NCBI GenBank assembly: GCA_018058545.1
Contig: JAGOZU010000002.1
Location: 6,231-70,230 of the forward strand
Reading direction: 5' to 3'
Source: Promineifilum sp.
Lineage (GTDB): Bacteria; Chloroflexota; Anaerolineae; Promineifilales; Promineifilaceae
DNA length: 64,000 nucleotides
A model generated the notes under the pieces. The model saw nothing but the letters and a program-made list of their open reading frames with translations. It had not been told where the DNA came from and did no database searches. Positions within the stretch are counted from its first letter, which is position 1, and each line of letters opens with the position of its first letter. The translations under genes were made by a program, and so were the position numbers. This document shows positions 11,837 to 27,747 of this stretch, one piece after another.

Positions 11837-12071
11837 GGGTTTACTGCCGCGAATCCCATGATATGACTCCCTGAATCTGCCTAAGCTGTATGCAATGGGA
11901 TGGATTCACGTTAAACCATGAAATCCATGAATCCTCGCTCGATCTCGCCGGAGCCGTGAGATAACCAGAGTTGAAAAAACTCAAACTTTTCCAGATCGTT
12001 AGCCGGTTTGTAAGTTTTGGTTGGTAAAAAGGAATTATGGTGCGGAAGACTCGGCCATTATCCTGATACCA

Positions 12072-12860
12072 ATGGACGAACTAGTGGACGAGAGGAAACT
12101 GAGCGAGATGGAAGAGCAAAAGGTTTTACAATGGACGATGGGTCCGGCGATTGATGCCCAAAACGCCGATCCTCAATCGATGTATTTTATTGCCAAGCGA
12201 GCGATGGATTTGATCATCGTCACCCTTTCGATGATCTTCCTGTTGCCGTTGATGGCCTTTATCGCCTTGCTTATCAAGTGGGATTCCCCCGGGCCGGCGA
12301 TCTTTAAACAGGAACGAGTGACCGCCAAACGGCGCATCCGCAACGGGCAAGTCTATTGGGAAGAAGTGCCCTTCACCATCTACAAGTTTCGCACCATGCG
12401 AATGGATGCGAAGTCGACTATCCATCGCCAATTCATCGAAGCCTATATCGCGGGGGATGAGGCGCGGATGGCCGAGCTGCAAACGGCTCCGAAGACCGAA
12501 GGCGTCAAATACAAGTTGGTGAAGGATCCGCGCGTCACGCCAATTGGCAGTTTCCTGCGAAAGACCAGCCTGGATGAATTGCCGCAATTCTGGAATGTTA
12601 TGATGGGTCACATGAGCCTTGTAGGCCCCCGGCCACCCATCCCCTATGAAGTCGACCTGTACCAGTATCACCATCACGACCGGCTGCGCACCGTGCCGGG
12701 AATCACCGGATGGTGGCAAGTGAGGGGCCGCAGCGCCACCAATTTCGAGGAAATGGTGCGCATGGATGTAGAATATATCCGGCAACAATCTTTGTGGCTG
12801 GATATCAAAATCATACTTATGACGGTTTTGGCCGTCGTCAACGCAAGAGGTGCTCGCTAA
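12072..12860 (+). CDS. Polyprenyl-phosphate sugar phosphotransferase (priming GT, WcaJ/PglC-like)
   Basis: [50 protein letters not shown]. Start uncertain (12021 TTG, 12072 or 12108 ATG). Confidence 0.92.
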
Positions 12861-12861
12861 T

Positions 12862-13935
12862 ATGACCGACCTCCGTATCGGCGCCATTGGCTGTGGCTAT
12901 TGGGGCCCAAACCTTATTCGAAACTTCATCGAGATCCCCGGCGCTCAAGTGATCGCCATTTCCGATCTGCAGCAGGAATCGCTCAATCGTGTGGCGCAAC
13001 GCTTCCCGCAGATCGAGGTTGCGACACGGGATTATCGCGACCTGTTTGAACTGAACCTGGATGCTGTGGTTATCGCCACGCCGCCGGCAACCCACTACGC
13101 GATTGCTCGCGATTGCATGGAGCACGGCCTGCACGTGCTGGTGGAGAAACCGATCACGCTCAACAGCGAAGACGCCGGGCAGTTGATCCAGGTGGCTAGC
13201 GAAAACGATGTTCGTTTGATGGTTGGCCACACGTTTGAATATAACTCGGCCGTGCGCGCCATCAAGCAGATGATTCAGGATGGCGAACTGGGTGACATTT
13301 ATTACATCGATGCCATCCGCGCCAGCCTTGGCCTCTTCCAGACGAAGGCCAATGTCGTATGGGACCTGGCTCCGCATGATATCTCCATCTTGCGCTATCT
13401 GCTGGATGCCGATCCCATATCCGTTAATACCCACGGTTCGTCATGCGTGCAGGAAGGCATTGAGGATGTAGCCTATACCACCCTTATGTTTCCTAAAAAC
13501 ATCATGGCTCATATCCGCTCCAGCTGGCTCGATCCGTCGAAACAACGGCGCATTACTGTCGTCGGCAGCGAGAAGATGGTCATGTATGACGATGTCGAAC
13601 CGCTGGAGAAGATCAAGATCTATGATAAGGGAGTGAAGGCCATCCGGCACACGGATACTTTTGGTGAATTCAGCTTCGCCTATCATTATGGCGATGTGAT
13701 CATCCCCTACATCCGCTTTGAAGAACCGCTTCGGGTGCAATGCCAACATTTTCTCGACTGCATCAACAAGGGCGAGCAGCCGCAGACGGATGGTCTGAAC
13801 GGGATGCGCGTCGTCCAGGTTGTTGAAGCGGCGCAACGTTCGATGAAGAACGGCGGAAATACGGTATTTGTGAATCAAAACGGGCACGGTGATCCGGCCG
13901 ATATCAAGCGCAGCAGGGAACTGACCAATGCCTGA
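12862..13935 (+). CDS. Gfo/Idh/MocA NAD-dependent sugar-nucleotide oxidoreductase (WlbA/WbpB/GnnA-like)
   Basis: IGCGYWG, EKP, MVGH, DLAPHD; precedes an acetyltransferase and a DegT aminotransferase. Confidence 0.85.
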   Translation: MTDLRIGAIGCGYWGPNLIRNFIEIPGAQVIAISDLQQESLNRVAQRFPQIEVATRDYRDLFELNLDAVVIATPPATHYAIARDCMEHGLHVLVEKPITLNSEDAGQLIQVASENDVRLMVGHTFEYNSAVRAIKQMIQDGELGDIYYIDAIRASLGLFQTKANVVWDLAPHDISILRYLLDADPISVNTHGSSCVQEGIEDVAYTTLMFPKNIMAHIRSSWLDPSKQRRITVVGSEKMVMYDDVEPLEKIKIYDKGVKAIRHTDTFGEFSFAYHYGDVIIPYIRFEEPLRVQCQHFLDCINKGEQPQTDGLNGMRVVQVVEAAQRSMKNGGNTVFVNQNGHGDPADIKRSRELTNA

Positions 13936-14578
13936 TATCTCCGAGAATGTCCTGCTGGAGGAACCCGGCACGATTGACGAGGGCGTGTCGTTGGGATATC
14001 CCACCGGTCGCGCCATCGCCGACCAAACCCTGCGTATCGGCAGCGGGGCCAACATTCGTTCCGGCACGACCATCTATGCCGGCACGACGATCGGCCGCGG
14101 CTTGCAGACCGGGCATAACGTCGTCATCCGCGAGGAAAACGTCATCGGCGATAACGTCGGTATCTGGAGCAATTCGGTCATCGACTATGGTTGCCGCATC
14201 GGCAATAACGTCAAGATCCACAGCAACGTCTATGTCGCTCAATTCACCACGATAGAGGACGATGCTTTTCTTGCGCCGGGGGTCAGCGTCGCCAACGATA
14301 TGCGGCCGCTGTGCGCCGAATGCACGCATGCCGGTGGGCCGACCATCAAACGCGGCGCGCGCATCGGCGTCAATGTGACCATTCTGCCCCGCGTGGTCAT
14401 CGGGGAGTATGCCCTGGTTGGCGCGGGCGCGGTCGTCACGAAGGATGTGCCGCCGCACGCGGTCGTCTATGGCAATCCGGCTCGCGTGGTGACGACGGTT
14501 GATGAGATCGACTGTCCGCTGCATCCCGGCGAGAAGGCTTACATTAACGGGCTGAGGCACGACTGCAGCGCACAATAA
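13928..14578 (+). CDS. Hexapeptide-repeat acyltransferase (WlbB/WbpD-like)
   Basis: Left-handed beta-helix repeats (IGSGANI, IGDNVGI, IGNNVKI), GAGAVVTKDVP, YGNPAR. Confidence 0.88.
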   Translation: MPDISENVLLEEPGTIDEGVSLGYPTGRAIADQTLRIGSGANIRSGTTIYAGTTIGRGLQTGHNVVIREENVIGDNVGIWSNSVIDYGCRIGNNVKIHSNVYVAQFTTIEDDAFLAPGVSVANDMRPLCAECTHAGGPTIKRGARIGVNVTILPRVVIGEYALVGAGAVVTKDVPPHAVVYGNPARVVTTVDEIDCPLHPGEKAYINGLRHDCSAQ

Positions 14579-14685
14579 GTGATTTGGAAAACAACGCAAG
14601 ATCGGTTCATTATATCGAACGTCAGCCCGTGGAAAAATCGAAAGCTTAACCCCCAAACCCTCAAACAGTAAGGTAGAGAAACCAC

Positions 14686-15825
14686 ATGGAAATCCCATTT
14701 GTCGATCTGAAAGCACAATATCGCCAGATAAAGGACGAAGTCGACCCGGCCGTGTTGGCAGTCATGCAGCGCGGCGACTTCGTGCTGGGTGGCGCCGTAT
14801 CCGAGTTTGAGCGTGAATTCGCCGAATATTGCAACACAGAGCACTGCGTCGGCGTTGATTCCGGTTATTCGGCGCTGGAGCTTATCGTGCGGGCATATGA
14901 TATCGGCCCCGGCGATGAGGTCATAACCGCCGCCAATACGTTCATCGCCACGACGCTGGCGATATCCAACACCGGTGCGACGCCGGTGCTGGTCGATTGC
15001 GACCCACAGACCTACAACATCGACCCGACCAAGATCGAAGCGGCCATCACGCCGCGAACGAAGGCCATCATGCCGGTGCATCTCTATGGGCAGACGGCCG
15101 ATATGGACGCCATTGTTGGTATCGCTCGCAAGCACGGCTTGTTCGTTTTTGAAGATGCGGCCCAGGCCAGCGGCGCGCGATACAAGGGGCGCCCGGCTGG
15201 AAGTCTGGGTGATGCCGCCGCGTTTAGCTTTTATCCCGGCAAGAACCTGGGGGCCTATGGAGACGGCGGGGCGGTGACCACGAGCGATGCCGCCATCGCC
15301 GAGAAAATTCGGCTGCTGCGCAATATCGGTCAGAAGGTGAAGTACTATCACGAGGTGAAGGGATTTAATCATCGTCTGGATACAGTGCAGGCAGCGGTGC
15401 TCAGGGTGAAACTGCCGTACCTTGATGGCTGGAACGCCAGTCGCCGCCGTGCCGCCGCCACATACGCCGAGATGCTGGCCGGGCTGCCGATCGTCGCGCC
15501 GGAAACGACCGATTATGCCGAGCATATCTTCCATCTCTATGTAGTTCGGGTGTCCGGAGGGCGCGAGGCGCTGATGGACCACCTGAAGGAGATGGGAGTT
15601 GCCACCGGCCTGCATTATCCGATTCCTATCCACCTGCAGCCGGCCTACACCGAGTTGGGCTATAAACGGGGGGACTTTCCGGTGACGGAGGCTTATGCCG
15701 AGGAGATTGTATCTCTGCCGATTTTTCCGGAACTGGATGACGAGAAGGTGAGCTACGTCGTCAACGCCATTCGCGCGTTCATGGCGGAACATGAGAACTT
15801 GCCTGAGGCGGTAGCGGTCGGCTAG
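14686..15825 (+). CDS. DegT/DnrJ/EryC1/StrS PLP aminotransferase
   Basis: [34 protein letters not shown] (PLP lysine), NHRLD. Confidence 0.93.
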
Positions 15826-15889
15826 AAATATCGGTATACGTAGGGAATGGGCGGCACGGTGGATGTGTCGCCCACCCTCTGATCCTGTC

Positions 15890-17284
15890 ATGAGAAGCAC
15901 GGTTGAACAAGATAGTCCCTATCGAGGGATAGCAGCACCCCGATCAAGGCAACGAGCGGAACCAAAATACCCGTGGATGGGTGAGTGGTGGTTTCTCCTG
16001 TTGGCGTTCCTGTTCCTGGCCGAGTCATTTGTCCCGTTCCTTCGATGGCCTCTTGGGCTACCTAAAGCCGTGGAAATCAGTATTCACGGATTCACCGGGC
16101 TAATCTTATTGGCCGCCTTTGCGATTATGTTGAAAGAGGACAGGATTCCCAAAGGCATATTGGTTGTTTTAGGTATCACCTTTATCTGGGGCATCGTGGC
16201 CTTTTATGAGGGACAATCTATCCCTGCATTTATATGGGGGTGGTATCGGATGTTCAAGTATCCGCTTATCGGTTTATTTGCCTACTTGGTCATCGATGAT
16301 CCTAGGGACTTTGCCAAATGGTTTTTAAGATTTTGCCTGGCGTTTTTGGCGTTTCAGGTTAGCGTGCAGGTCATCATGTATGCATTAGGGTTTCCGACCG
16401 GCGATGCGATGGGAGGCACGTTCGGCTGGAAAGGGTCTGCCCCTTTTCTTATGTTGGTGTTCTTCATCACCAGCATAATGTTAGGACAATGGTTGGCAAC
16501 GCGCAGTGTGAAATATCTGGCGCTCGTTTTAGTGCTGGGTTTTTTGGGAAGCATCTTGAGCATAACCAAGTTCTACTTAATCGGATTGATTCTAATGCTT
16601 GGAGTAGCTGCCTTGATTCAGATCATTTGGAGCGGCAAGCTACGTCAGTTTTTGGTATTTCACCTGCTTTTTATCGTAATCGGAGCCGTCTTCCTGCCTA
16701 TTTATAATAATTTTCTGGTTCAACAAGGTATGTCGACAATCCAGGAATTTCTGCAAGACGACAAATTAGAGGCATACTTGTTTACCGTAAACGAAAATGT
16801 TGGCGGGAATTATTATTTGGGGCGTGGTCAGTCAATCGTCTATGGTTGGCAACAAATACAACGTGACTCTGTCACGACTATGTTCGGCCATGGATTAGGT
16901 AGCCGATCCAATAGCTCTTTCCTGGGAATAGGTGGAATCCGTTATCAGGACGATGTGTATGGTGGCGTTTCAAGTTCGGGTTTGGGGACCTGGATTCAGG
17001 AATATGGGTTGATTGGATTGATGGTGTTCCTGTTAATTGTAGTCCTGATTAACATGCGATTATTTAAGATCACACGTCGGATCACAGATCCCTATCAACT
17101 CTCACTCACATATGGCTTGATCCTTTTCACTTCCTGTTTGCCGGTCTGGTTATTCTATATTGATCTCACGGTCGCCAGTGCAATGGCGATTTTATACTGT
17201 GTATCTCTTGGCTATATTTTCCGCCTGGGTGCGCGGCCTGCCACGTCCACCATCCATTCGATACCTGGTCGTCTACAGCGATAG
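15890..17284 (+). CDS. Multi-TM O-antigen polymerase/ligase-like protein (Wzy/WaaL-like)
   Basis: About 10-12 hydrophobic segments, large loop, FGHGLG...WIQEYGLIGL Wzy_C-like pattern, AT-rich codon use, position in a glycan cluster. Confidence 0.65.
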   Translation: MRSTVEQDSPYRGIAAPRSRQRAEPKYPWMGEWWFLLLAFLFLAESFVPFLRWPLGLPKAVEISIHGFTGLILLAAFAIMLKEDRIPKGILVVLGITFIWGIVAFYEGQSIPAFIWGWYRMFKYPLIGLFAYLVIDDPRDFAKWFLRFCLAFLAFQVSVQVIMYALGFPTGDAMGGTFGWKGSAPFLMLVFFITSIMLGQWLATRSVKYLALVLVLGFLGSILSITKFYLIGLILMLGVAALIQIIWSGKLRQFLVFHLLFIVIGAVFLPIYNNFLVQQGMSTIQEFLQDDKLEAYLFTVNENVGGNYYLGRGQSIVYGWQQIQRDSVTTMFGHGLGSRSNSSFLGIGGIRYQDDVYGGVSSSGLGTWIQEYGLIGLMVFLLIVVLINMRLFKITRRITDPYQLSLTYGLILFTSCLPVWLFYIDLTVASAMAILYCVSLGYIFRLGARPATSTIHSIPGRLQR

Positions 17285-17545
17285 TCGATTGACCACTCCA
17301 TAGCCTCGGGCGCCATGTGAGCCGTGGCTCGGGTTTTCCGGGTTATGTGGATGATCTGGGATTATGTGGTTATTCCCGACTGGCCGCATCGCCTGTTCTT
17401 GCCGTTCCCTTTAGTTTTGTCGTAAGTCGCAGAGCCTATAATTTATTAGCTGGAGTCTGGGCGCAAACGCCACAAGTTTGCGGCGACAACAGGTATTTTC
17501 CGAGTCTGTGTCGGCTGATTCCGGAGTTTGTTGCTGGAGAATTAC

Positions 17546-18664
17546 ATGAGGAAAAAGAAGATCGCCTTCATTGGAGTTAAAGCATTACCCGCCAAAGCGG
17601 CCGTTGACGCTGTTGTGCAAAGAATCGCCACCTCCTTTGATCATGAGCGATTCGAGCCAACCGTTTATGTCAGCAATAAAGAGGTGGCTGAGGGGACGGT
17701 CGTGCCCGGCGTGCGTCTCATTCGAGTTCCAAGCGTACCAGGTAAGTTCACCCGGGCCACGGTTACTTTTCTAATGGCCGCCCTGCATGCGCTATTCCTG
17801 GGTGATTATGACCTTATCAATATCCACAGTGTGGAAACTGGTTTTGTGCTGCCGTTGTTACGCTTGCGCTATAAGGTGATCGCGACGTCGCATGGATTGC
17901 ACAGTTTGGTTCCCGTAGAGTACAACCAATGGGGGTTGGCAAGGTACTTCTTCAAGGCGTGTGAATATCCGTTCATGTATCTTTCGACTGTTCGAACCAG
18001 CGTTTCGCTGCCGGACGCGAATTTTCTGGAGGAGAGATATGGTCGTGATGTCAGGTATCTGCCTAACGGTATCCAGCTGGAGGAACTGAAGATCAAGGAA
18101 GCCCGTGATTTTTTGGCAGGCCAGGGCTTGCAGCCGGGCAACTATATGATTTTCACCGCGGGCCGAAATATCCCGCGCAAGGGCTGTCATTATGTCCTCC
18201 AGGCCATGCAGCAGATCGAGGATGATTTGCCGCTGCTTATCCTGGGCGACCCGGCATTTGATCTAAAGTATCATCAGCAACTTTTGTCGCTGGCTGATGG
18301 GCGGACGCGATTTGGCGGGTTTGTTTCCGATAAGGGATTGCTCTTCGCGCTGATGCAGATGTCCCGCCTCTTCCTGTTTCCGACTACCTATGAAGCGATG
18401 GCTATCACCCTGCTGGAAGTTGCCGCGCTGAAAACGCCACTCCTTGCCAGTGACCTGCCGGAGAATCGCGCTGTTTTGCCGGAGGAGGCGTTATTTTTCA
18501 AATCGGGCGATGTGGATGATTTGCGTGAGAAGATGATCTGGGCTTTGAGCCATCCGGATGAGATGCGTGATTTGGCGGAACGCGCCGAGAATGTCGTGCG
18601 CGAGCATTTCCAGTGGCGGCATGTGGTCGACCAATATGAAGAGGTGTACGAGGCTTTGCTATAG
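17546..18664 (+). CDS. Glycosyltransferase family 4
   Basis: GT-B pattern; YEAMAITLLE (ExxxxxxxE) and ASDLP motifs. Confidence 0.88.
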   Translation: MRKKKIAFIGVKALPAKAAVDAVVQRIATSFDHERFEPTVYVSNKEVAEGTVVPGVRLIRVPSVPGKFTRATVTFLMAALHALFLGDYDLINIHSVETGFVLPLLRLRYKVIATSHGLHSLVPVEYNQWGLARYFFKACEYPFMYLSTVRTSVSLPDANFLEERYGRDVRYLPNGIQLEELKIKEARDFLAGQGLQPGNYMIFTAGRNIPRKGCHYVLQAMQQIEDDLPLLILGDPAFDLKYHQQLLSLADGRTRFGGFVSDKGLLFALMQMSRLFLFPTTYEAMAITLLEVAALKTPLLASDLPENRAVLPEEALFFKSGDVDDLREKMIWALSHPDEMRDLAERAENVVREHFQWRHVVDQYEEVYEALL

Positions 18665-18820
18665 GCGGCCTGCTCGTGCAACCGGTGGATCACGCAAGAC
18701 ATCGCATGATTTGGTTGGCTTATGCGGAAAGCGCTCCCTATTTTCATGGATGATCGATGATATGGCCGGACAGTTTATGCCTTTTGTGAACGGTCTCTCC
18801 AGGAAGTGGACAGGATTGAA

Positions 18821-20047
18821 ATGAAAATTCTAATGGTTAACAGCTTTAACTATATGCGGGGAGGCGCCGAACGTTGTTTCTTCGACCTATCTGACTTACT
18901 TCGCAGTCATGGCCATGAGGTTATCCCTTTTTGCATGGACCATCCGCAGAATCTCCCCTCGGAATTCAGCGATGATTTTGTAAGCTATATTGACTTTCCA
19001 ACCGAGATGGGAAAGCCCGGCATCAGCTCCAAAGTACGCGTGTTGGAGCGGGTGCTCTATTCCCGAGAAGCGAAGCGAAAGGTTGAGGCGCTGATCGATA
19101 GGGTGAAGCCCGACCTGATACATATCCACGGCTTTATCCACGAGATGTCGACCTCGATCCTGCCGGCGATGAAGTCGGCCGGGTTGCCGGTGGTTCAGAC
19201 TTTGCACGATTATAAAATCGTCTGCCCGAATACATCTTTTGTGTCACACGGCCATATTTGTGAGGCCTGCAAAGGGGGCAAGTATTACAACATGACCCGC
19301 TATCGCTGCAAGCGTGGGTCGCTTAGCGCCAGTCTGCTGGCATCTGTGGAGATGTATTTCCACGAAGCCTTTCGCCTGTACGAGCCCAATGTTGATCTGT
19401 TCATCGCGCCCAGCCAGTTCTTAGCCGACAAAGTCGTTGAGCATGGTGTTCGCAAGCCGCTCACCGTCATCCCAAACTTCATTCGTCCGGACAGTTTTCA
19501 ACCCGCCTATGAAGCGGATAACTACTTTGTCTTTGCCGGACGCCTTGTACGCATGAAGGGGGTTCTCACCCTGTTGGAGGCGGTGCGTCGGGTGAAAACC
19601 GATGCCGAGCTGGTCATCGCCGGCGCGGGTGAACTGGAACCTGAATTGCATCAGTTTGTGGAAGATAACCATCTGACAAATGTGAGGTTTGCAGGGCATC
19701 TGAATACGGCCGACCTGGCTAAACTTGTCCAGCGAGCCATCTTCACCGTGATAGCGTCGGAAGGGTATGAGAATTATCCGATGACCGTCATCGAATCCTT
19801 TGCCTGCGGCACGCCGGTAATTGGTTCCAGGATCGGCGGCATTCCCGAACAGATCATCCACGGCGAAAACGGCCTCCTGTTCGAGCCGGGTGACGCCGCC
19901 GGTCTGGCGGAGCAGATGCAACGGTTGCTGGATAATCGCGCCGAGGCGCTGGAGATGGGCCGCGCCGGACGCAAACAAACGCAGGAACTTAATGGTCCTG
20001 TAGCCCATTATGAGCAGACTATCGCAGCTTACCAATCGGTCCTTTGA
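18821..20047 (+). CDS. Glycosyltransferase family 4
   Basis: MKILMVN..GGAE, TLHDYKIVCP, YENYPMTVIESFACGTPVIGSRIGGIPE. Confidence 0.92.
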   Translation: MKILMVNSFNYMRGGAERCFFDLSDLLRSHGHEVIPFCMDHPQNLPSEFSDDFVSYIDFPTEMGKPGISSKVRVLERVLYSREAKRKVEALIDRVKPDLIHIHGFIHEMSTSILPAMKSAGLPVVQTLHDYKIVCPNTSFVSHGHICEACKGGKYYNMTRYRCKRGSLSASLLASVEMYFHEAFRLYEPNVDLFIAPSQFLADKVVEHGVRKPLTVIPNFIRPDSFQPAYEADNYFVFAGRLVRMKGVLTLLEAVRRVKTDAELVIAGAGELEPELHQFVEDNHLTNVRFAGHLNTADLAKLVQRAIFTVIASEGYENYPMTVIESFACGTPVIGSRIGGIPEQIIHGENGLLFEPGDAAGLAEQMQRLLDNRAEALEMGRAGRKQTQELNGPVAHYEQTIAAYQSVL

Positions 20048-20288
20048 GGTGCCATCATCCGCACGTAAGAGGCGTTGTAAGCCAATCTGTATACTCTTGA
20101 GACGTAAGAGACAGGGTGTCTCAAGATAGATATGCGTTATCATATTGGGAGATTGGTGGCATTAAGCCAAACAGGGCAAGTATTCGAAATGGGTCAAGCG
20201 TTGCATCGCCTTGACCTAACATGTCTGGCTTGCTCCAGGGATAAGGCATTGAGCGTTTAACGAAGGACCACACCGGAATTATTGTCGT

Positions 20289-21311
20289 ATGAAAATGTTA
20301 CACATGACCAAAGAGCGCAAGGGGAAGTTCCATCCCGAACACATCAGAAATGTGGTGCGTCGCCGCTATTACCTGGACCTGTCGTCGGACTATCGGGACT
20401 CGCTGGTCCTTGCCGGAACAGGACGCAGCGGCACCACCTGGATATCCGAGGTTATTAACTATCGTAACGAATATCGGCTGATGGATGAGCCTGACCGTAA
20501 TGTTCGAATCGAAGCCTTCGCGCATTTCAACGCGATCCAGTACATCCGCCCCGATGACGATAACCCCGCCTGGATTGAGCCGGTGGGTCTGTCGCTATCC
20601 GGTCGATTGCGAAACGATTGGTCCGACCGCTTTAACACGCGCATCATATCCAATAAGCGACTGATCAAGTTCATTCGCGCCAGCTTGTATCTCAAGTGGA
20701 TGGTAAACCACTTTCCAGGCCTAAAAGTGGCCTTCCTGATGCGCCACCCATGCGCTGTTTGTCTCTCCCAGTCACGGCTCGAATGGGAAATAGACCTGAG
20801 CGATATTTTACTTGTCCAGCCGCAACTTATGGAAGATTTCCTGGAGCCGTTCCGCACCCAGATTGCTGCGGCCGATACGCTGTTCGAGAAGCGACTGTGG
20901 ATGTGGTGCGTCGATAATTATGTCGCGCTTTCTCAATTGGAAACCGGAGACGTACATCTGGCATTCTATGAATCATTCTGCGAGGAGCCGGAGCAAGAGA
21001 TCGAGCGCTTGTTCAACTTCTATGACAAGCAATGGGATATCTCGGTCTATGAGGCCATGCGGAAGCCATCGAATTCAAGCAAGCCCGACAGCGCCATCGT
21101 CACAGGTAAGAACCGTGTCGACAGCTGGATGAAGCATATCACCGATGAACAGCGTGAACTGGCTCGACGTATGTTGCATCAGTTTGGCCTGGATACCATT
21201 TACTCGGTTGATTCACCTTTGCCTGATACTGACGCTGCTTGGGAAATGTTGGCGCGCCCGGCGCAACCTGTCGCCTTCCAACCGCCCGCCCGCCAGCACT
21301 CTGGCTCGTGA
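20289..21311 (+). CDS. Sulfotransferase (Sulfotransfer_1/3-like)
   Basis: 5'-PSB loop LAGTGRSGTTW, 3'-PB MRHPCAVCLS, YESFCEEPEQEIERLFNF, and a terminal WMKH..DEQ pattern. Confidence 0.85.
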   Translation: MKMLHMTKERKGKFHPEHIRNVVRRRYYLDLSSDYRDSLVLAGTGRSGTTWISEVINYRNEYRLMDEPDRNVRIEAFAHFNAIQYIRPDDDNPAWIEPVGLSLSGRLRNDWSDRFNTRIISNKRLIKFIRASLYLKWMVNHFPGLKVAFLMRHPCAVCLSQSRLEWEIDLSDILLVQPQLMEDFLEPFRTQIAAADTLFEKRLWMWCVDNYVALSQLETGDVHLAFYESFCEEPEQEIERLFNFYDKQWDISVYEAMRKPSNSSKPDSAIVTGKNRVDSWMKHITDEQRELARRMLHQFGLDTIYSVDSPLPDTDAAWEMLARPAQPVAFQPPARQHSGS

Positions 21312-21347
21312 GCGAATTCTGAAACCTTTATGAGGAGTTGACGCCGT

Positions 21348-22118
21348 ATGAAAGTAGGGATTCTTGCCGGCGGCCACGGCACACGGCTGGCCGAAGAAAC
21401 GGAGATTAAACCCAAGCCTATGGTGGAGATCGGCGGCCGTCCGATTCTCTGGCATATCATGATGCATTATGCCCATTACGGCCATGAAAATTTTGTCGTG
21501 GCTCTGGGCTATAAGGGCGAGGTCATCAAGCGCTACATGGTCGACTACTGTTCACTGAACAGCAATTTGACGGTGAGCCTTAAGGACGGCCGTGTCGAGC
21601 AGCACGGCAACAACGGCATCCAGGATTGGACGGTTGAGCTGATCGACACCGGTCTGAACACCATGACCGGCGGCCGCATCAAGCGTCTGCAACCCTATAT
21701 GGGCGATTCGACGTTTATGCTTACCTGGGGCGACGGCGTCTCGACGGTCGATCTGGATCGCCTTCTGGCTTTCCATCGCCATCACGGCCGTTTGCTCACC
21801 ATGACCGCCGTGCGACCGCCCGCCCGCTATGGGCACATGGAGTTCGACGGCGACCGCATCCGCGAGTTCACCGAGAAGCCACAAACGGCCGAGGGATGGA
21901 TCAATGGCGCGTTCTTCGTCGTCGAGCCGCAGGTGTTTGACTATATCGACGGCGACGATACCCAATTTGAGAAGGAACCTCTGGAACGTCTGGCGGCCGA
22001 CGGCGAATTGATGGCCTACAAACATGAAGGGTTCTGGCAATGTATGGACACCCGGCGCGACAAGTATGTGCTGGAAAAATTGTGGGACAGCGGGCAAGCC
22101 CCCTGGAAGATTTGGTAG
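21348..22118 (+). CDS. rfbF: Glucose-1-phosphate cytidylyltransferase
   Basis: ILAGGHGTRLAEETEIKPKPMVEIG, TMTGGRIKR, FTEKP, GFWQCMDTRRD. Confidence 0.92.
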   Translation: MKVGILAGGHGTRLAEETEIKPKPMVEIGGRPILWHIMMHYAHYGHENFVVALGYKGEVIKRYMVDYCSLNSNLTVSLKDGRVEQHGNNGIQDWTVELIDTGLNTMTGGRIKRLQPYMGDSTFMLTWGDGVSTVDLDRLLAFHRHHGRLLTMTAVRPPARYGHMEFDGDRIREFTEKPQTAEGWINGAFFVVEPQVFDYIDGDDTQFEKEPLERLAADGELMAYKHEGFWQCMDTRRDKYVLEKLWDSGQAPWKIW

Positions 22119-22135
22119 GAGCTAAGTGAACTAAA

Positions 22136-23176
22136 ATGCGTGTATTAGTGACTGGTCATAACGGTTACGTGGGCACGGTTCTGGTGCCTATGCTTTTGGA
22201 AGCGGGTCATGATGTCGTTGGTCTGGACACGAATCTGTTCCAGGAGGCGACGTTCGGCGATGATGTCACCGCCGCTATTCCGGCCATCAACAAGGATGTG
22301 CGCGATGTGACTCACGCGGATGTCGACGGCTTCGACGCCATCCTCCATCTGGCCGGCCTCTCCAACGATCCGTTGGGAGACCTGAACCCCGAGTTGACGT
22401 ATGAGATCAACCATCGGGCTTCGGTTCGACTGGCGGAGATCGCCAAGGAGTTGGGCGTCGAGCGGTATATCTTCTCGTCTTCGTGCAGCAACTACGGCGC
22501 AGGGGTGGATGATTGGCTCAATGAGGAGTCGGCATTCAATCCGGTGACGCCTTACGGCCGTTCCAAGGTCATGGTCGAGCAAGATGTCGCCAAGCTGGCC
22601 GACGATAATTTCAGCCCAACCTTCCTGCGCAGCTCGACCGCCTATGGCGTATCGCCCCGGTTGCGTTTCGACCTGGTGATCAACAACCTGACCGCCTGGG
22701 CCTACACTACCGGACTGGTTTACCTGAAAAGCGACGGCACGCCCTGGCGGCCGGTGGTCCACATCGAGGACATGGCCTTGGCCTTCGTGGCCGCACTCCA
22801 TGCGCCGCGCGAGTTGATCCATAACGAGGCGTTCAACGTCGGCCGCCCGGAAGAGAACTATCGCATCCGCGAGTTGGCCGAGATCGTCGCCGAGGTCGTT
22901 CCCGGCAGCCGTGTCGAGTTCGCCGAGGGCGCCAGCGCCGACAAGCGCAACTATCGCGTCGACAGCAGCAAGATCGCCCGCACCCTGCCTGAATTCAAGC
23001 CCAAGTGGACGGCGCGCAAGGGCGCCCAGGAACTCTACGAGGCTTATCAGAAGATCGGCCTCCAGGTTGAGGAGTTCGAAGGACCTCGCTACCGTCGCAT
23101 CGACCACATCAAGATGCTTATTAATGAAGGGCGTCTTGATGAGCGGTTGCGCTGGCGCACCGCCGTGCCTGTCTGA
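22136..23176 (+). CDS. Extended SDR nucleotide-sugar dehydratase/epimerase/reductase
   Basis: TGHNGYVG, HLAGLSNDPLG, SSCSNYG, YGRSK, RFDLVIN. Confidence 0.85.
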   Translation: MRVLVTGHNGYVGTVLVPMLLEAGHDVVGLDTNLFQEATFGDDVTAAIPAINKDVRDVTHADVDGFDAILHLAGLSNDPLGDLNPELTYEINHRASVRLAEIAKELGVERYIFSSSCSNYGAGVDDWLNEESAFNPVTPYGRSKVMVEQDVAKLADDNFSPTFLRSSTAYGVSPRLRFDLVINNLTAWAYTTGLVYLKSDGTPWRPVVHIEDMALAFVAALHAPRELIHNEAFNVGRPEENYRIRELAEIVAEVVPGSRVEFAEGASADKRNYRVDSSKIARTLPEFKPKWTARKGAQELYEAYQKIGLQVEEFEGPRYRRIDHIKMLINEGRLDERLRWRTAVPV

Positions 23177-23260
23177 CAGCCGGTGGGGTCAAGAATTCCG
23201 GCTCGTTCCGCGCAAGCGCTCACCGATGGCCGGGGCAGGTTATCATCCCGCCCCGGCAAC

Positions 23261-24508
23261 ATGAAGAAAATTATGTCAATCTATAAAAATGAAACCACGG
23301 ACCGCATCTCCGGTTCTTCCAACCTGGAGACGATCATCGCTTTCGGCGAGACGCCACTGGCCGATCGGTTGCTTCGGGCCGATCAGCTTGACGAGCCGGA
23401 CTTGATGGCGCCGTTGACGCTGGTCTTCTGCCCCGACACATCGCTGGCCCAGATCCGCGAGACGGTCAATCCCGAGATTCTGTTTTACGCAGAATATCCC
23501 TATTTCTCATCCGTTTCGCCGTCGCTCCTGAAGCATTTCCGTGAGAGCGCCGAATACATCATGGACACGCGGCCGCTTGGCCCCGATAGCCTGGTAATGG
23601 AAGCGGCCAGCAACGACGGTTACATGCTGAAGAACTTCGCCGAACGAGGCATCCCCGTGCTGGGTATCGATCCGTCGGTCGCCCCGGCCACGGCGGCCCA
23701 GGAAGCCGGCATCCCCACGATGATCACCTTCTTCACCCGCGACCTGGCCCGGCAATTGGTGGATGAGGGCAAGGCGGCCGATGTCTTCCTGGCCAATAAT
23801 GTTTTGGCCCATGTGCCCGATCTCAACGGTTTTGTGGCCGGCATCAAGACCGTGCTGAAGCCGGCAGGGGTGGCCGTCATCGAGTGCCCCTACGTCGTCG
23901 ACCTGGTTGACCATGTGGAGTTTGACACCATCTATCATCAGCACCTCTGCTATTATTCGGTGACGGCGCTGGACAAGCTGTTTCGTCGGCATGGTCTGTA
24001 TCTGAACGACGTCAAGCGGACGAAGATCCATGGCGGGTCGCTGCGGCTGTTTGTCGAGCCGCAGGAGAACGTCAGCCCGGTTGTGCGGGAGCTTCTGGCT
24101 ACCGAGCGCGAGCGCAAGGTGGATCGCATCGACTATTACCTTGATTTCGCCGATCGAATACAGAATGTCAAGGACAACCTGCTGGCTATCCTGCGCGATC
24201 TGAAGGCGCAAGGCTGCCGAATCGCCGCCTATGGCGCTGCGGCCAAGGCCACGACGATGCTGGCCTATTGCGAGATCGATTCGTCGCTGGTCGACTATGT
24301 CGTCGATCTGAACAAATACAAGCACGGCCGCTACATGGGTGGCAACCACCTGCCAATCTATCCGGTCGAAAAACTCCTGGAGGATCAGCCAGACTATGTC
24401 CTGATCCTGGCCTGGAACTTCGCCGAAGAGATCATGCGCCAGCAGTCTGCCTATCGCGAGGCTGGGGGCAAGTTCATCATCCCCATCCCTGAACCGCATA
24501 TCGTTTGA
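23261..24508 (+). CDS. NDP-hexose 3-C-methyltransferase-like (class I SAM, C-methyltransferase C-terminal domain)
   Basis: [56 protein letters not shown]. Confidence 0.88.
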
Positions 24509-24523
24509 AATGAGTGTTGGAAC

Positions 24524-25501
24524 GTGACATCGACTACACAGCAAGCTGGAACATCGAACAACGAGGGGCGCACTTTGCATAAATGGCTCCGTAAATTGAG
24601 GGCAATCGGCAAGCAGTTTGTCCTCACTGTTATCGGCGAAGATCGTTTCCTGCGGCGACGCGCTGCACGACAGATTGCGAGCGGTAAGCCGTTGTTACTC
24701 GTACATACGATGGGTAAGGTGGGGTCAACCTCCATTGCCGCCTCGCTGAAAGCCAGCGATCTGCGACGGACGATGACGATTTACCAGCCTCACTTCCTCA
24801 GTGATGAGGGCATCGCCTTTGCCGAAGCGCTGGCCATCAGTAACGCCGGCAGTTGGGACAATCTGACCCAAAAAGGTCGAGCGGGGTATCTGCGCAACCG
24901 CTTGCTAAATGATGAGTTGCTCCGGTTGCGGGCGGCAGGCGGTCGAGTCAAGATCATTACTGTCGTACGCGACCCGCTGGCGACCAATGTCTCCGGCTTC
25001 TTCCATAACTCTCGCTGGTGGCCGGCCGAGCTAAACGCTCGTTGCCAATCGGCCACACCGGACTGCCTGGCTGCCCTGGAACGCTATTTTCTGGATCACT
25101 ATACCCATGATGTACCCAATACATGGTTTGATATGGAAGTGAAGGCGCTCTACGGCATTGACGTGTTCGCTGAGCCGTTTGATATCGCTCGTGGGTATAC
25201 TATCTACCGTAATGACTTCGCTGATGTTCTGGTCATGAAGCTGGAGCGGATGAACGAGTGTGTCGCCGACGCTATGCATGACTTCCTTGGCCTGAAGAAC
25301 TTCCAATTGATGGAGAGCAACACGGCCGATGATAAAGGATACGCCGATGTCTATGTTGCTTTCCGCAAGCGAGTGGCGCTGCCGGAATCCTATCTTGACC
25401 GCATGTACACCTCACGCATTGCCCGCCAATTTTACTCGCCGGAAGAGATCGCTGCCTTTCGTCAAAAATGGTCAGTGGCTCGCGTTCCGGAGGTTAAGTA
25501 A
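24524..25501 (+). CDS. Sulfotransferase-like capsular polysaccharide synthesis protein
   Basis: HTMGKVGSTSI (PAPS-loop-like), IITVVRDPLATNVSGFF, WFDME...GIDVF. Confidence 0.72.
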   Translation: MTSTTQQAGTSNNEGRTLHKWLRKLRAIGKQFVLTVIGEDRFLRRRAARQIASGKPLLLVHTMGKVGSTSIAASLKASDLRRTMTIYQPHFLSDEGIAFAEALAISNAGSWDNLTQKGRAGYLRNRLLNDELLRLRAAGGRVKIITVVRDPLATNVSGFFHNSRWWPAELNARCQSATPDCLAALERYFLDHYTHDVPNTWFDMEVKALYGIDVFAEPFDIARGYTIYRNDFADVLVMKLERMNECVADAMHDFLGLKNFQLMESNTADDKGYADVYVAFRKRVALPESYLDRMYTSRIARQFYSPEEIAAFRQKWSVARVPEVK

Positions 25502-25507
25502 GCCCAA

Positions 25508-26338
25508 ATGCCTCGATCGTCGCTGCGGCAAAGCGTCACGCGCGTCACGATGCGCACCTACCATACGTTGCGACATCAAGCTCAGGATAGTGGGCTGCTC
25601 CCGGCTTCGACTGATTACACCCGCTTTCTGTGTGTCGGCAATCCACGCACCGGCTCCACCTTACTCATGCGCTCGCTCAACAACCACAGCCGCATTGTTG
25701 GCTATGGCGAGATCGTCAAGGATATTGACCGCTACCCCGGTCATTACCACGAGTTTGGCAATGGTGAGACAATCTTCCAGCGCGATCCGGCGGCTTTTCT
25801 GGAGACCAGAGTATTTTGTAAGTATCCGCCAATCGTTGATGCAGTGGGCTTTAAAATATTCTATCATCATGCGCCACGCGACACGGCCTGGGGACAGGCC
25901 GTATGGGATTATGTGCTGGGTCAACCCAATCTGAAAATTCTGCATCTCAAGCGCCACAACCTGCTTAAAGTATTTTTGTCCAGGAAGCAGGCTCGCCGTT
26001 CGGGAGAGTATATAAAATACTCCAATGACGTTGATGACGCGATGGAGCTTGACCCAGACGAAGCCAGGGAATTTTTTGAATACATGCGAGCGAGTGAGGC
26101 GGAGTATGATGTCCTACTGAGCGGACGGCCGCTGATGGAGGTCATTTACGAGGAGCTATCTCGTGATTATGACGGCATCATGCGCGACATCCAGTCATTC
26201 CTGGGGGTCAACTATGAAGATGTGAAGCACGGCACTGAGAAGCGTCACAAACGCTCGCTGGCTTCCCAGATCAAGAACTACGCTGAGTTAAAAGATCGCT
26301 TTCTTGGCTCACCCTGGGAATCGTTCTTCACTGAATGA
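25508..26338 (+). CDS. Stf0/NodH-like sulfotransferase
   Basis: VGNPRTGSTLLMRSLNNH...GE, GFKIFYHH, ILHLKRHNLL..FLS, YEELS. Confidence 0.82.
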   Translation: MPRSSLRQSVTRVTMRTYHTLRHQAQDSGLLPASTDYTRFLCVGNPRTGSTLLMRSLNNHSRIVGYGEIVKDIDRYPGHYHEFGNGETIFQRDPAAFLETRVFCKYPPIVDAVGFKIFYHHAPRDTAWGQAVWDYVLGQPNLKILHLKRHNLLKVFLSRKQARRSGEYIKYSNDVDDAMELDPDEAREFFEYMRASEAEYDVLLSGRPLMEVIYEELSRDYDGIMRDIQSFLGVNYEDVKHGTEKRHKRSLASQIKNYAELKDRFLGSPWESFFTE

Positions 26339-26387: not shown

Positions 26388-27698
26388 ATGAAACGATCTG
26401 CCCTTCTCCTGACCATGCTGCTCCTGGCGACCATCCTGCCCGCGCGGCTGTGGGCCGAACCGGCCACATCTCTCGCCAACATCCCGCCTTCCGCCTTTTT
26501 CCCCATCTACGAGACCGGCGCAGGTTGGGACGCGAAAGAGTACACGACGGCCATCGCCTTTGGCGACGTGGACGGCGACGGCCGCGACGAGGCGGTGATC
26601 GGCCGCCACGGGGCGACCGGTCCGCGCCTGTTAATGATCGATGACGCCGCGGCCGGGTATGCCTTGCTATGGACTTTCGGGGAAGGGTGGGGTGTGGCCG
26701 CCTGGCCAACAGCCGTGGCTTTCGGTGACCTGGACGGCGACGGCCGCGACGAGCTGGCTGTGGCCCGATTCACGGGTTATAACGAGCGCGTCCTGGTCTT
26801 CGATGACGCGACGGCCGGCTTCGCTCTTCTGGCTCAGTTCGGCAAGGAATGGTCTTCGGCGGTTCACGCCACCGACATCGCCCTGGGGGATATCGACGGC
26901 GACGGGCGCGACGAGCTTGGTATCGCCACCAATGCCACCGAGGGGCCGCGCATCTTCATCCATGAGGATGCCGAAGTCGAATTTGCACCGCTGTGGAGCA
27001 CCGGCGAGACCTGGGGCGCGGCGGCGATGGCCACGGCGATAGCTTTCGGCGATGCCGACGGCGACGGCGTGGATGAGATCGCCATTGGCCGCAACCACGA
27101 TGCCCACGCGCGCTATTTCGTCCATAACGGCGCGCCGGATTTCGGGCTGCTGCTGCAGGCGGGCGAGACCTGGGGGCCAGGTCCCTACACCACTGATGTC
27201 GCATTCGGCAATGTGGACGACGACCCGGCCGAGGAGCTGGGCGTGACCCGCAAAGCCAGCCTCAATGCGCGCGCTTTTATCTACGATGACGCCGCCGCCG
27301 GATTTGCCCTCCTGACGCAGTTTGGACAGACATGGGCTTTCAACGCCTACGCGACGAGCATCGCCTTTGGTGATGTGGACGGTGACGGCCGCGACGAGAT
27401 CGGGCTGGCGCGGGTGGCCACGATCAACGAGCGGTTCGCCGTGTTTGACGACGCCATGCCCGGCGGCAGATTGCAACCATTCGATGAGCTATGGGGCGGC
27501 GGCGACGAGTGGCCGGGAGAACATTATGCGACGTCGATCGCCTTTGGGCATGTCGATCCGGCCACCCCGGAGGCGGAACTGGGCGTGGGTCGCTTCGCGG
27601 ATAGTGAGGCGCGCTATTTCATCCTGTCGCGCGGCTGGACGGGATGGGCGCCATTTGTGGGTGGGTCGACCATGGCGGAAGGGCCGTTGAACCCTTAA
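26388..27698 (+). CDS. Secreted FG-GAP/VCBS repeat beta-propeller protein
   Basis: Signal peptide MKRSALLL...LWA. Seven repeats of roughly 57 aa with T(A/S/D)(I/V)A(F/L)GD.DGDG.DE Ca-binding loops. Confidence 0.85.
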   Translation: MKRSALLLTMLLLATILPARLWAEPATSLANIPPSAFFPIYETGAGWDAKEYTTAIAFGDVDGDGRDEAVIGRHGATGPRLLMIDDAAAGYALLWTFGEGWGVAAWPTAVAFGDLDGDGRDELAVARFTGYNERVLVFDDATAGFALLAQFGKEWSSAVHATDIALGDIDGDGRDELGIATNATEGPRIFIHEDAEVEFAPLWSTGETWGAAAMATAIAFGDADGDGVDEIAIGRNHDAHARYFVHNGAPDFGLLLQAGETWGPGPYTTDVAFGNVDDDPAEELGVTRKASLNARAFIYDDAAAGFALLTQFGQTWAFNAYATSIAFGDVDGDGRDEIGLARVATINERFAVFDDAMPGGRLQPFDELWGGGDEWPGEHYATSIAFGHVDPATPEAELGVGRFADSEARYFILSRGWTGWAPFVGGSTMAEGPLNP

Positions 27699-27747
27699 AT
27701 CGGCCGCCGGCTTGTCCGGCCCATATTTGTCGCGAGGTATCCGGCAT

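What the first reader, a model, noticed from the sequence alone, without database searches (positions are those of the whole stretch)
12072..26338. Putative sulfated surface polysaccharide locus with three unrelated sulfotransferases
A priming phosphotransferase, a Wzy-like protein and two GT4s are co-oriented with three distinct PAPS-loop proteins (20289-21311, 24524-25501, 25508-26338). Sulfated bacterial glycans are established in only a few groups (e.g. cyanobacterial synechan, rhizobial and mycobacterial sulfated glycolipids). I am not aware of a characterised Chloroflexota pathway. Three enzymes suggest position-specific multi-sulfation, relevant to sludge and granule EPS. No flippase, Wzz/Wzc or PAPS-synthesis gene is in the window.
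Basis: partly seen in the sequence, partly recalled or inferred. Interest (0 to 1): 0.75.

Follow-up and report, generated by a model that had tools for sequence, protein, structure and literature searches.

The report
Sulfated surface-glycan locus in Promineifilum
An uncultured filamentous wastewater bacterium (Promineifilum group, Chloroflexota) carries genes that very probably build a cell-surface sugar polymer and add sulfate to it at several positions; such loci are already known in cyanobacteria, so this is a new example rather than a new kind, though it names a possible source of the unexplained sulfated polymers in sludge.

Summary
Fourteen co-oriented, tightly packed genes (12021-26338) encode a priming phosphoglycosyl transferase, a three-enzyme 2,3-diamino-sugar cassette, a multi-pass polymerase-like membrane protein, two GT4s, a CDP-glucose/C-methyltransferase cassette and three mutually dissimilar sulfotransferase-type proteins. 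All three keep both PAPS-binding motifs, which are invariant across their homologues.

- A Sat-CysC fusion plus a second CysC lies on contig C62.
- Wzc, a fourth sulfotransferase, more GTs, Wzx and large surface proteins lie on contig C122.
- In the closest relative (G517), the window genes and the C122 block form one colinear locus of about 46 kb. The window therefore holds the two outer parts of a split cluster.

The genome lacks CysH and sulfite reductase, so activated sulfate probably serves sulfation only.

The second sulfotransferase (NKWYS family) always follows the CDP-sugar cassette. It occurs in 19 of 23 genus genomes; the other two are variable.

Closest known system: the synechan xss cluster. 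I found no description for Chloroflexota, but similar loci are common in this scan. Verdict: new member of a known kind, moderate interest.

The parts
12021..12860 (+). Small priming polyprenyl-phosphate sugar-phosphate transferase (PGT, Bac_transf)
   Evidence: PF02397, 211 bits. NCBIfam EPS_sugtrans, 277 bits, covering the C-terminal catalytic part only and below cut-off. 79% identical to the G517 orthologue.
12850..13935 (+). WbpB-like NAD sugar 3-dehydrogenase (GFO/IDH/MocA)
   Evidence: PF01408 and PF22725. Best NCBIfam hit is UDP-GlcNAc 3-dehydrogenase, 201 bits, below cut-off.
13928..14578 (+). Hexapeptide-repeat sugar N-acetyltransferase (WbpD-like)
   Evidence: PF00132, 92 bits. NeuD/PglB/VioB-type hit below cut-off.
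14686..15825 (+). DegT/DnrJ/EryC1 sugar aminotransferase (WbpE-like)
   Evidence: PF01041, 427 bits.
15863..17284 (+). Multi-pass membrane protein, candidate Wzy-type polymerase (or ligase). The called start is probably M39 at 15977.
   Evidence: No Pfam or NCBIfam hit, even at E=10. About 10-12 hydrophobic segments and an external loop of about 85 aa. Only 45 homologues, all unnamed. The AF2 model (pLDDT 82) best matches RodA and FtsW, with probability 1.0 and TM 0.43-0.51.
17528..18664 (+). GT4 glycosyltransferase a
   Evidence: PF00534 and PF13439.
18806..20047 (+). GT4 glycosyltransferase b
   Evidence: PF00534, 126 bits, and PF13439.
20289..21311 (+). ST1, a soluble PAPS-type sulfotransferase from a large uncharacterised bacterial family
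   Evidence: PF00685 38.7 bits and PF13469 32.5 bits, both above cut-off. R46, G48, R152, P154 and S160 are invariant in 43 homologues. The family profile hits many solved sulfotransferases at E 1e-9 to 1e-6. No TM segment. dN/dS 0.04 against G517.
21348..22118 (+). Glucose-1-phosphate cytidylyltransferase (RfbF)
   Evidence: NCBIfam equivalog TIGR02623, 362 bits against a cut-off of 300.
22136..23176 (+). SDR epimerase/dehydratase-family enzyme of the CDP-sugar cassette (not the canonical CDP-glucose 4,6-dehydratase)
   Evidence: PF01370, 152 bits. TIGR02622 scores only 31.8 bits against a cut-off of 278.
23183..24508 (+). NDP-hexose C-methyltransferase (Zn-binding N domain, SAM domain, C-methyltransferase C domain)
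   Evidence: PF08484 201 bits, PF08421 57 bits, PF13489.
24524..25501 (+). ST2, an NKWYS-family protein and putative carbohydrate sulfotransferase tied to the CDP-sugar cassette
   Evidence: PF10364, 96.9 bits. K65, V66, G67, S68, R149, P151 and S157 are invariant in 49 homologues. The profile's best PDB hits are heparan sulfate 3-O- and 2-O-sulfotransferases, E 0.006-0.02. It follows the C-methyltransferase gene in all five relatives' loci. Present in 19 of 23 genus genomes. The fold search was uninformative.
25508..26338 (+). ST3, a NodH/Stf0-like carbohydrate sulfotransferase
   Evidence: PF13469, 58.2 bits. The family profile hits PDB 9vki 'LPS sulfotransferase NodH' at E 1e-17 over nearly its full length, and Stf0 (1tex) at E 1e-6. 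R47, G49, S50, R149 and S158 are invariant. Present in 15 of 23 genus genomes.
26388..27698 (+). Secreted FG-GAP beta-propeller protein (possible accessory; membership uncertain)
   Evidence: PF01839 and PF13517. Signal peptide after M29. Relatives carry much larger FG-GAP proteins next to the same module, on the opposite strand.

Best explanation
The window holds two of the three pieces of a Wzx/Wzy-type surface-polysaccharide cluster whose product is sulfated.

Proposed mechanism (inferred unless marked):
1. The small PGT loads a sugar phosphate onto polyprenyl phosphate at the cytoplasmic face.
2. The dehydrogenase, aminotransferase and acetyltransferase trio supplies a 2,3-diacetamido-2,3-dideoxy-hexose.
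3. RfbF makes CDP-glucose (family assignment shown). The SDR and C-methyltransferase convert it to a C-methyl branched hexose.
4. The GT4s, plus a GT2 and a GT4 on contig C122, build the repeat unit.
5. The soluble sulfotransferases ST1-ST3, and ST4 on C122, transfer sulfate from PAPS to different hydroxyls while the unit is still cytoplasmic. ST2 most likely acts on the C-methyl sugar.
6. The C122 genes finish the job. Wzx flips the unit, the SEDS-fold protein at 15863-17284 polymerises it, and Wzc sets chain length.

PAPS comes from the Sat-CysC fusion and the extra CysC on C62.

The polymer probably coats the filament, perhaps together with the large Flg_new_2/LamG-like/FG-GAP proteins encoded in the ancestral locus.
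For: Gene content and tight co-orientation:
- Gaps between genes range from -11 to 243 bp.

Sulfotransferases:
- PAPS motifs are present and invariant in all three families.
- ST3 matches solved NodH and Stf0 carbohydrate sulfotransferases. ST1 matches many solved sulfotransferases.
- All three lack TM segments.
- All three are under purifying selection, with dN/dS 0.04-0.14.

Cluster unity:
- Relative G517 has one colinear locus: PGT...GT4b-Wzc-ST4-GT2-GHMP-SIS-HAD-SDR-GT4-Wzx-large surface proteins-ST1-large protein-RfbF-SDR-CMT-ST2-ST3.
- G001 shows the same organisation, with extra sulfotransferases and sulfatase-family genes.
- In this genome the middle block is intact on C122. It includes Wzx (PF13440, 227 bits) and Wzc (Wzz+GNVR+AAA_31).

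Sulfate supply:
- The genome has Sat-CysC plus CysC and three SulP transporters.
- It has no PF01507 (CysH) and no PF01077 (sulfite reductase) at 98% completeness. PAPS therefore has no evident use other than sulfation.
- At least nine sulfotransferase ORFs occur genome-wide.

Distribution:
- RfbF-SDR-CMT-ST2 is invariant in five relatives.
- In the genus, ST2 occurs in 19 of 23 genomes, ST3 in 15 of 23 and ST1 in 10 of 23. This fits modular, serotype-like decoration.
- Distant NKWYS members also sit in polysaccharide loci with other sulfotransferases.
Against: - No chemical, expression or read-level evidence exists.
- ST2 is tied to sulfotransferases only by motifs, a sub-threshold Pfam hit and weak PDB profile hits. 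Its confident AF2 model found no solved sulfotransferase by Foldseek. hhalign against the ST3 family aligns only the P-loop, with 2% probability.
- The polymerase assignment rests on context and a SEDS-like fold. No Wzy family model matches.
- The SDR is not the canonical 4,6-dehydratase, so the C-methyl sugar route is uncertain.
- The cluster is split across contigs. Co-regulation, and even correct assembly of the junction at 20047-20289, are unverified.
- Sugar identities, acceptor positions and the timing of sulfation are inferences.
Confidence: 0.7

Rival explanations
1. The glycan is made as described, but it is not a free capsule or EPS. It is a short glycan ligated to the large surface proteins (S-layer or sheath glycoprotein) or to the cell wall. 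The 473-aa membrane protein would act as a ligase or oligosaccharyltransferase rather than a polymerase. Sulfation still occurs.
For: In relatives, the sugar and sulfotransferase genes are interleaved with 850-1500-aa Flg_new_2/DUF1349/He_PIG/Big_9 proteins and flanked by FG-GAP giants. The membrane protein matches no Wzy model and has a SEDS/GT-C-type fold shared by ligases and polymerases. In this genome the locus lies between a PBP1A gene and a Mur ligase gene.
Against: A Wzc-type co-polymerase with a tyrosine-kinase domain belongs to the ancestral cluster; this is typical of high-molecular-weight polymers. In this genome the large proteins have moved away, or one has been lost, without loss of the glycan genes.
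Confidence: 0.2
2. The sulfotransferases act on non-glycan acceptors. Candidates are tyrosines of the neighbouring large secreted proteins (RaxST/TPST-like), a lipid, or a small metabolite. Their position next to sugar genes would then be incidental.
For: The ST1 family profile hits protein-tyrosine sulfotransferases and cytosolic SULTs about as well as any carbohydrate enzyme. In relatives, ST1 lies between two large surface-protein genes. Some other sulfotransferases of the genome are not in glycan loci (C70 and C62; C97 lies next to a 1601-aa protein).
Against: ST3 is NodH/Stf0-like. ST2 is fixed after the CDP-sugar cassette in every relative, with gaps of a few bases. When the cluster split, ST1 stayed with the sugar genes rather than with the large proteins. 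Distant NKWYS members sit in polysaccharide loci.
Confidence: 0.08
3. The locus is a decaying remnant. After the rearrangement that removed Wzc, Wzx and other genes, the window's genes no longer form a working pathway.
For: The cluster is split between C78 and C122, and one large gene is lost. The genome is small for the genus, 3.6 Mb against about 5 Mb.
Against: All 14 ORFs are intact. dN/dS against G517 is 0.04-0.14 for every gene that could be measured. The C122 block is also intact. The PAPS genes are retained although sulfate reduction genes are absent.
Confidence: 0.05

Closest known systems
Synechan (xss) cluster of Synechocystis sp. PCC 6803 (Maeda et al. 2021, PMC8205485)
   Same: A Wzx/Wzy/PCP-dependent heteropolysaccharide cluster that contains sulfotransferases of distinct subfamilies next to the glycosyltransferases. 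Sulfation is thought to occur on the repeat unit before export. Part of the machinery is encoded elsewhere in the genome.
   Different: - Different phylum: monoderm-type Chloroflexota, so no OPX is expected.
- Four sulfotransferases instead of two, one of them from the NKWYS family.
- Cassettes for a diamino sugar and a CDP-derived C-methyl sugar.
- Large surface-protein genes interleaved in the ancestral locus.
- No XssQ/S/R regulators were looked for.
- Synechan's sulfate content was measured; here nothing has been measured.
wps-1 cluster of Actinoplanes missouriensis (PMC13390465)
   Same: A Gram-positive-type Wzx/Wzy/Wzz cluster with two sulfotransferases of different families and a methyltransferase. 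It is proposed, but not proven, to make a sulfated polysaccharide.
   Different: Its genes were disrupted and gave a sporangium phenotype. It has no CDP-sugar C-methyl cassette and no NKWYS protein is reported.
Sulfated capsular polysaccharide cluster of Cobetia marina KMM 1449 (PMC11766843)
   Same: A bacterial surface polysaccharide with sulfotransferase and PAPS-synthesis genes assigned to it.
   Different: It uses the ABC-transporter (kps) pathway, PAPS genes lie inside the cluster, the structure was solved by NMR, and the organism is a Gammaproteobacterium.
NodH / Stf0 carbohydrate sulfotransferases (PDB 9vki, 1tex)
   Same: The ST3 family aligns with both over most of its length. It shares the RxG-type 5'-phosphosulfate loop and the 3'-phosphate motif.
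   Different: Those enzymes sulfate a lipo-chitooligosaccharide and trehalose. The ST3 acceptor is unknown, and identity is low.

Membership tests
PAPS-dependent sulfotransferase superfamily (ST1, ST2, ST3) | 5'-phosphosulfate-binding loop (K/R-x-G-S/T-S/T after strand 1) | tested here: met
   The loops are GRSGTT, GKVGST and PRTGST. Invariant residues in family alignments are R46/G48 for ST1, K65-S68 for ST2 and R47/G49/S50 for ST3.
PAPS-dependent sulfotransferase superfamily (ST1, ST2, ST3) | 3'-phosphate-binding motif (R-x-P/N ... S at the start of a helix after a strand) | tested here: met
   Invariant residues are R152/P154/S160 in ST1, R149/P151/S157 in ST2 and R149/N151/S158 in ST3. ST2's RDPxxxxxS aligns with that of heparan sulfate 3-OST.
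PAPS-dependent sulfotransferase superfamily (ST1, ST2, ST3) | Score above the curated cut-off of a sulfotransferase Pfam family | tested here: inconclusive
   ST1 and ST3 pass (PF00685 38.7 bits; PF13469 32.5 and 58.2 bits). ST2 fails PF00685 (16.6 bits against 22) and is assigned to PF10364 NKWYS instead.
PAPS-dependent sulfotransferase superfamily (ST2 only) | Sulfotransferase fold by structure comparison | tested here: inconclusive
   The AF2 model has pLDDT 91. Foldseek against the PDB gave no match at E<=0.001 and only meaningless TM scores. The order of strands and motifs in the model fits the fold, but this was not shown by superposition.
PAPS-dependent sulfotransferase superfamily | Sulfate transfer from PAPS to an acceptor | not testable with these tools
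   This needs an enzyme assay.
Wzx/Wzy-dependent polysaccharide pathway | Initiating polyprenyl-phosphate sugar-phosphate transferase | tested here: met
   PF02397, 211 bits.
Wzx/Wzy-dependent polysaccharide pathway | Wzy polymerase | tested here: inconclusive
   No Wzy, Wzy_C or EpsG model matches. The protein is multi-pass with an external loop, and its model resembles RodA and FtsW. Its position in the locus is conserved.
Wzx/Wzy-dependent polysaccharide pathway | Wzx flippase | tested here: met
   It is absent from the window. It is present at C122 (PF13440 227 bits, PF01943 104 bits). It is 59% identical to the Wzx that lies inside the single colinear locus of G517.
Wzx/Wzy-dependent polysaccharide pathway | Polysaccharide co-polymerase (Wzz/Wzc) | tested here: met
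   C122 encodes a 506-aa protein with Wzz, GNVR and AAA_31 domains. It is 72-75% identical to the Wzc inside relatives' loci.
Synechan-type sulfated EPS cluster | Two or more sulfotransferases of different subfamilies inside a Wzx/Wzy cluster | tested here: met
Synechan-type sulfated EPS cluster | Ester sulfate demonstrated in the polymer | not testable with these tools
PAPS supply | ATP sulfurylase and APS kinase in the genome | tested here: met
   C62 encodes a 590-aa PUA_2 + ATP-sulfurylase + APS_kinase fusion and a 187-aa APS kinase.

The most novel reading that the evidence does not exclude
ST2 (NKWYS family) is dedicated to the product of the adjacent CDP-glucose/C-methyltransferase cassette. 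The polymer would then carry a sulfated C-methyl branched hexose, a sugar type I know of in no described glycan. This sulfated coat, together with the LamG-like, FG-GAP and Flg_new_2 giant proteins encoded in the ancestral locus, would form the filament surface matrix of Promineifilum. It would also be a major source of the 'sulfated glycosaminoglycan-like' material measured in activated and granular sludge.
Probability: 0.2. Interest if true: 0.7.

Novelty: new member of a known kind. Interest (0 to 1): 0.45.

Why it matters
Sulfated glycoconjugates are measured in the EPS of aerobic and anaerobic granular sludge, but the producers and enzymes are unknown. BLAST with reference sulfotransferases found few hits in dominant genera (PMC10483923). 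Ca. Promineofilum is among the most abundant Chloroflexota genera in treatment plants worldwide (PMC10746286).

A genus-wide cluster with several sulfotransferases, in a genome that activates sulfate but apparently cannot reduce it, gives a concrete and testable candidate producer. It also supplies marker genes (the ST2/NKWYS module) for metagenomes.

It extends predicted sulfated-polysaccharide synthesis to Chloroflexota; a survey of mat MAGs found no sulfotransferase in its two Chloroflexi MAGs (PMC9723792). It also gives the uncharacterised Pfam family NKWYS a working functional hypothesis.

Tried and rejected
- Foldseek of the confident ST2 model against the PDB gave no usable match. The fold could not be confirmed that way.
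- hhalign of the ST2 family against the ST3 family aligned only the P-loop.
- phmmer of ST2 and of the Wzy-like protein against PDB sequences gave nothing.
- Pfam at E=10 and NCBIfam gave nothing for the Wzy-like protein.
- The promoter and terminator scan was at chance level, so I make no operon-boundary claim.
I therefore have no expression evidence and no read-level check of the junction at 20047-20289.
- I considered that the nucleotidyltransferase could be the missing HddC of the heptose-like genes on C122. I rejected this: it scores 362 bits as glucose-1-P cytidylyltransferase against 65 bits as HddC.
- I considered that Sat-CysC serves sulfur assimilation. This is unlikely, because CysH and sulfite reductase families are absent.
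- Only one of the five relatives' records fetched by the look-up of encoding contigs could be searched as a whole genome.

Full report
**What is there**

Between a PBP1A gene (8213-11836) and a Mur-ligase gene (27712-29379) lie fourteen co-oriented ORFs on the plus strand. Gaps between them range from -11 to 243 bp. Their G+C is 0.47-0.61, against about 0.66 in the flanks.

Pfam and NCBIfam assign them as follows:
- A small Bac_transf priming transferase.
- A GFO/IDH/MocA dehydrogenase whose best hit is UDP-GlcNAc 3-dehydrogenase, a hexapeptide acetyltransferase, and a DegT aminotransferase. This is the classical trio for a 2,3-diacetamido-2,3-dideoxy sugar; the sugar identity is inferred.
- A 473-aa multi-pass membrane protein with no family hit.
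- Two GT4s.
- ST1.
- A glucose-1-phosphate cytidylyltransferase (equivalog TIGR02623, 362 bits against a cut-off of 300), an SDR, and a three-domain C-methyltransferase.
- ST2 and ST3.

A secreted FG-GAP propeller gene follows. Its true start is at 26388 and it has a signal peptide.

**Are the three proteins sulfotransferases?**

ST1 passes the cut-offs of PF00685 and PF13469, and ST3 passes PF13469. ST2 belongs to PF10364 (NKWYS, "putative capsular polysaccharide synthesis protein") and misses PF00685 with 16.6 bits.

All three have a 5'-phosphosulfate loop and a 3'-phosphate motif. These exact residues are the invariant columns of alignments of 43, 49 and 25 homologues.

Profile searches against PDB sequences gave:
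- ST1 family: many sulfotransferases at E 1e-9 to 1e-6.
- ST3 family: "LPS sulfotransferase NodH" (9vki) at E 1e-17 over nearly its full length, and Stf0 at E 1e-6.
- ST2 family: heparan sulfate 3-O- and 2-O-sulfotransferases as best hits, but only at E 0.006-0.02.

A confident AF2 model of ST2 (pLDDT 91) found nothing in the PDB by Foldseek. ST2 therefore rests on motifs, weak profile hits and context.

The three proteins are not recognisably similar to one another by BLAST or hhalign beyond the motifs. None has a transmembrane segment. Against their orthologues in relative G517, dN/dS is 0.04, 0.14 and 0.085.

**The missing parts are in the genome, and they belong to the same cluster**

Homologues of ST2 and ST3 carry the names Promineifilum or Candidatus Promineofilum.

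In five relatives' contigs, RfbF-SDR-CMT-ST2 is always present in this order:
- ST3 follows in three of the five.
- ST1 lies upstream in three of the five. There it is separated from RfbF by a roughly 1300-aa Flg_new_2/He_PIG/Big_9 protein.
- The module is flanked by other large Flg_new_2/DUF1349 proteins and by FG-GAP giants.

In the same-genus genome G517, a single colinear stretch of about 46 kb reads as follows: PGT-WbpB-WbpD-WbpE-Wzy-like-GT4a-GT4b-Wzc-ST4-GT2-GHMP kinase-SIS-HAD-SDR-GT4-Wzx-large surface proteins-ST1-large protein-RfbF-SDR-CMT-ST2-ST3.

Another genus member (G001) has the same plan, with three further sulfotransferases and sulfatase/phosphodiesterase-family genes inserted.

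In the window's genome, the middle block (Wzc through the large proteins) sits intact on another contig, C122:23.5-38.3 kb. The He_PIG protein has no orthologue.

The window therefore holds the two outer parts of a split cluster. Both blocks are internal to long contigs, so a true rearrangement is likely.

**PAPS supply**

- Contig C62 encodes a PUA_2/ATP-sulfurylase/APS-kinase fusion and, next to it, a second APS kinase.
- Three SulP transporters are present.
- The families that contain APS/PAPS reductase (PF01507) and sulfite reductase (PF01077) are absent from this 98%-complete genome. The same searches ring in 14 and 11 of the 14 control genomes.
- Sulfate is thus activated but apparently not reduced, which leaves sulfation as the evident use of PAPS (inference).
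- The genome has at least nine sulfotransferase ORFs. Two are in a second Wzx locus with a WecA-type primer on C134.

**The membrane protein**

It has about 10-12 hydrophobic segments and an 85-aa external loop. It has only 45 homologues in the large protein collection, none of them named. Its AF2 model (pLDDT 82) best matches the SEDS polymerases RodA and FtsW, with probability 1.0 and TM about 0.45-0.5.

From my own knowledge, that fold class also includes O-antigen ligases and is predicted for Wzy. I read it as a Wzy-type polymerase. A ligase role cannot be excluded.

**Distribution**

- NKWYS is rare in the phylum: 3 of 401 sampled genomes.
- The ST2 orthologue is in 19 of 23 genomes of the genus, and the four without it are incomplete.
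- ST3 is in 15 of 23 genus genomes, and ST1 orthologues are in 10 of 23.
- Between relatives, the nucleotide-sugar genes are 84-94% identical. Wzy (41-46%), the GTs and ST2 (61-73%) diverge most. This is the pattern of serotype-determining genes.
- Distant NKWYS proteins in other phyla also lie in polysaccharide loci with other sulfotransferases, Wzx, Wzy_C or a CysQ-like gene.

**Mechanism, with its status**

Shown:
- Family assignments, motifs, synteny, and presence or absence of pathway genes.

Inferred:
- A lipid-linked repeat unit is built in the cytoplasm from a diacetamido sugar, a CDP-derived C-methyl hexose and other sugars.
- It is sulfated there by three or four soluble enzymes using PAPS.
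- It is then flipped, polymerised and length-controlled by the C122 genes.
- ST2's fixed position, 6-15 bp from the CDP-sugar genes, suggests that it acts on that sugar.
- The SDR is not the canonical CDP-glucose 4,6-dehydratase, so the route to the methylated sugar is open.

**Comparison and novelty**

The closest characterised system is the synechan xss cluster. It is Wzx/Wzy/PCP-dependent and has two sulfotransferases of distinct subfamilies (PMC8205485). Similar predictions exist for Actinoplanes (PMC13390465), and solved sulfated capsules exist in marine Gammaproteobacteria (PMC11766843). A 2024 review counts six bacterial genera with sulfated polysaccharides (PMC11625862).

I found no paper that links Promineofilum with sulfotransferases. 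A mat study found none in its Chloroflexi MAGs (PMC9723792).

This scan's own notes list more than 1000 similar loci in many phyla (unchecked AI notes). That lowers the surprise.

I therefore class this as a new member of a known kind. Its practical interest is that sulfated glycoconjugates in sludge EPS lack known producers (PMC10483923), and Ca. Promineofilum is abundant in treatment plants (PMC10746286).

Noticed in passing
genome contig C62:12.2-14.6 kb; whole genome: The genome has a Sat-CysC fusion, a second CysC and three SulP transporters. It has no member of PF01507 (APS/PAPS reductase) or PF01077 (sulfite reductase) at 98% completeness. Sulfate is activated but apparently not reduced.
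   Followed up: partly
genome contig C134:58-73 kb: A second sulfotransferase-bearing glycan locus. Its genes are a WecA-type Glycos_transf_4, a 1309-aa TPR protein, three GT4-type genes, a GT2, two sulfotransferases, Wzx and an SDR.
   Followed up: partly
genome contig C122:23.5-38.3 kb: The translocated middle of the cluster carries GHMP kinase, SIS and HAD genes (a heptose-phosphate-like route) without a nucleotidyltransferase of its own. It also carries a fourth sulfotransferase.
   Followed up: partly
window 22136-23176: The SDR lies between a true glucose-1-P cytidylyltransferase and a C-methyltransferase, yet it is not the canonical CDP-glucose 4,6-dehydratase (31.8 bits against a cut-off of 278). 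It is GalE-like. How the keto intermediate needed for C-methylation arises is unclear.
   Followed up: no
window 15863-17284: A membrane-protein family with no Pfam or NCBIfam model and only 45 homologues. Its predicted fold is SEDS-like (RodA/FtsW). It may be an undescribed Wzy or ligase lineage.
   Followed up: partly
L033:5716-9505 and 12428-13792 (relative G001): Sulfatase and phosphodiesterase-family genes are inserted inside the same biosynthetic locus in a relative, next to extra sulfotransferases. This hints at trimming or turnover of sulfate esters.
   Followed up: no
window 20047-20289 and 21311-21348: These are the junctions where, compared with relative G517, a block of about 23 kb (Wzc to the large proteins) and a large-protein gene of about 4 kb are missing. 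I did not search for a repeat or mobile element there.
   Followed up: no
window 37719-39347 (-): A 542-aa lipoprotein-like protein with a Pro/Thr-rich linker and no Pfam hit, in a second low-G+C island (0.52-0.55).
   Followed up: no
G523:C17:95102-95914 (same genus): The ST3 orthologue there carries two in-frame TGA codons and is only 36% identical. It is possibly a pseudogene, which fits the variable sulfotransferase content in the genus.
   Followed up: no
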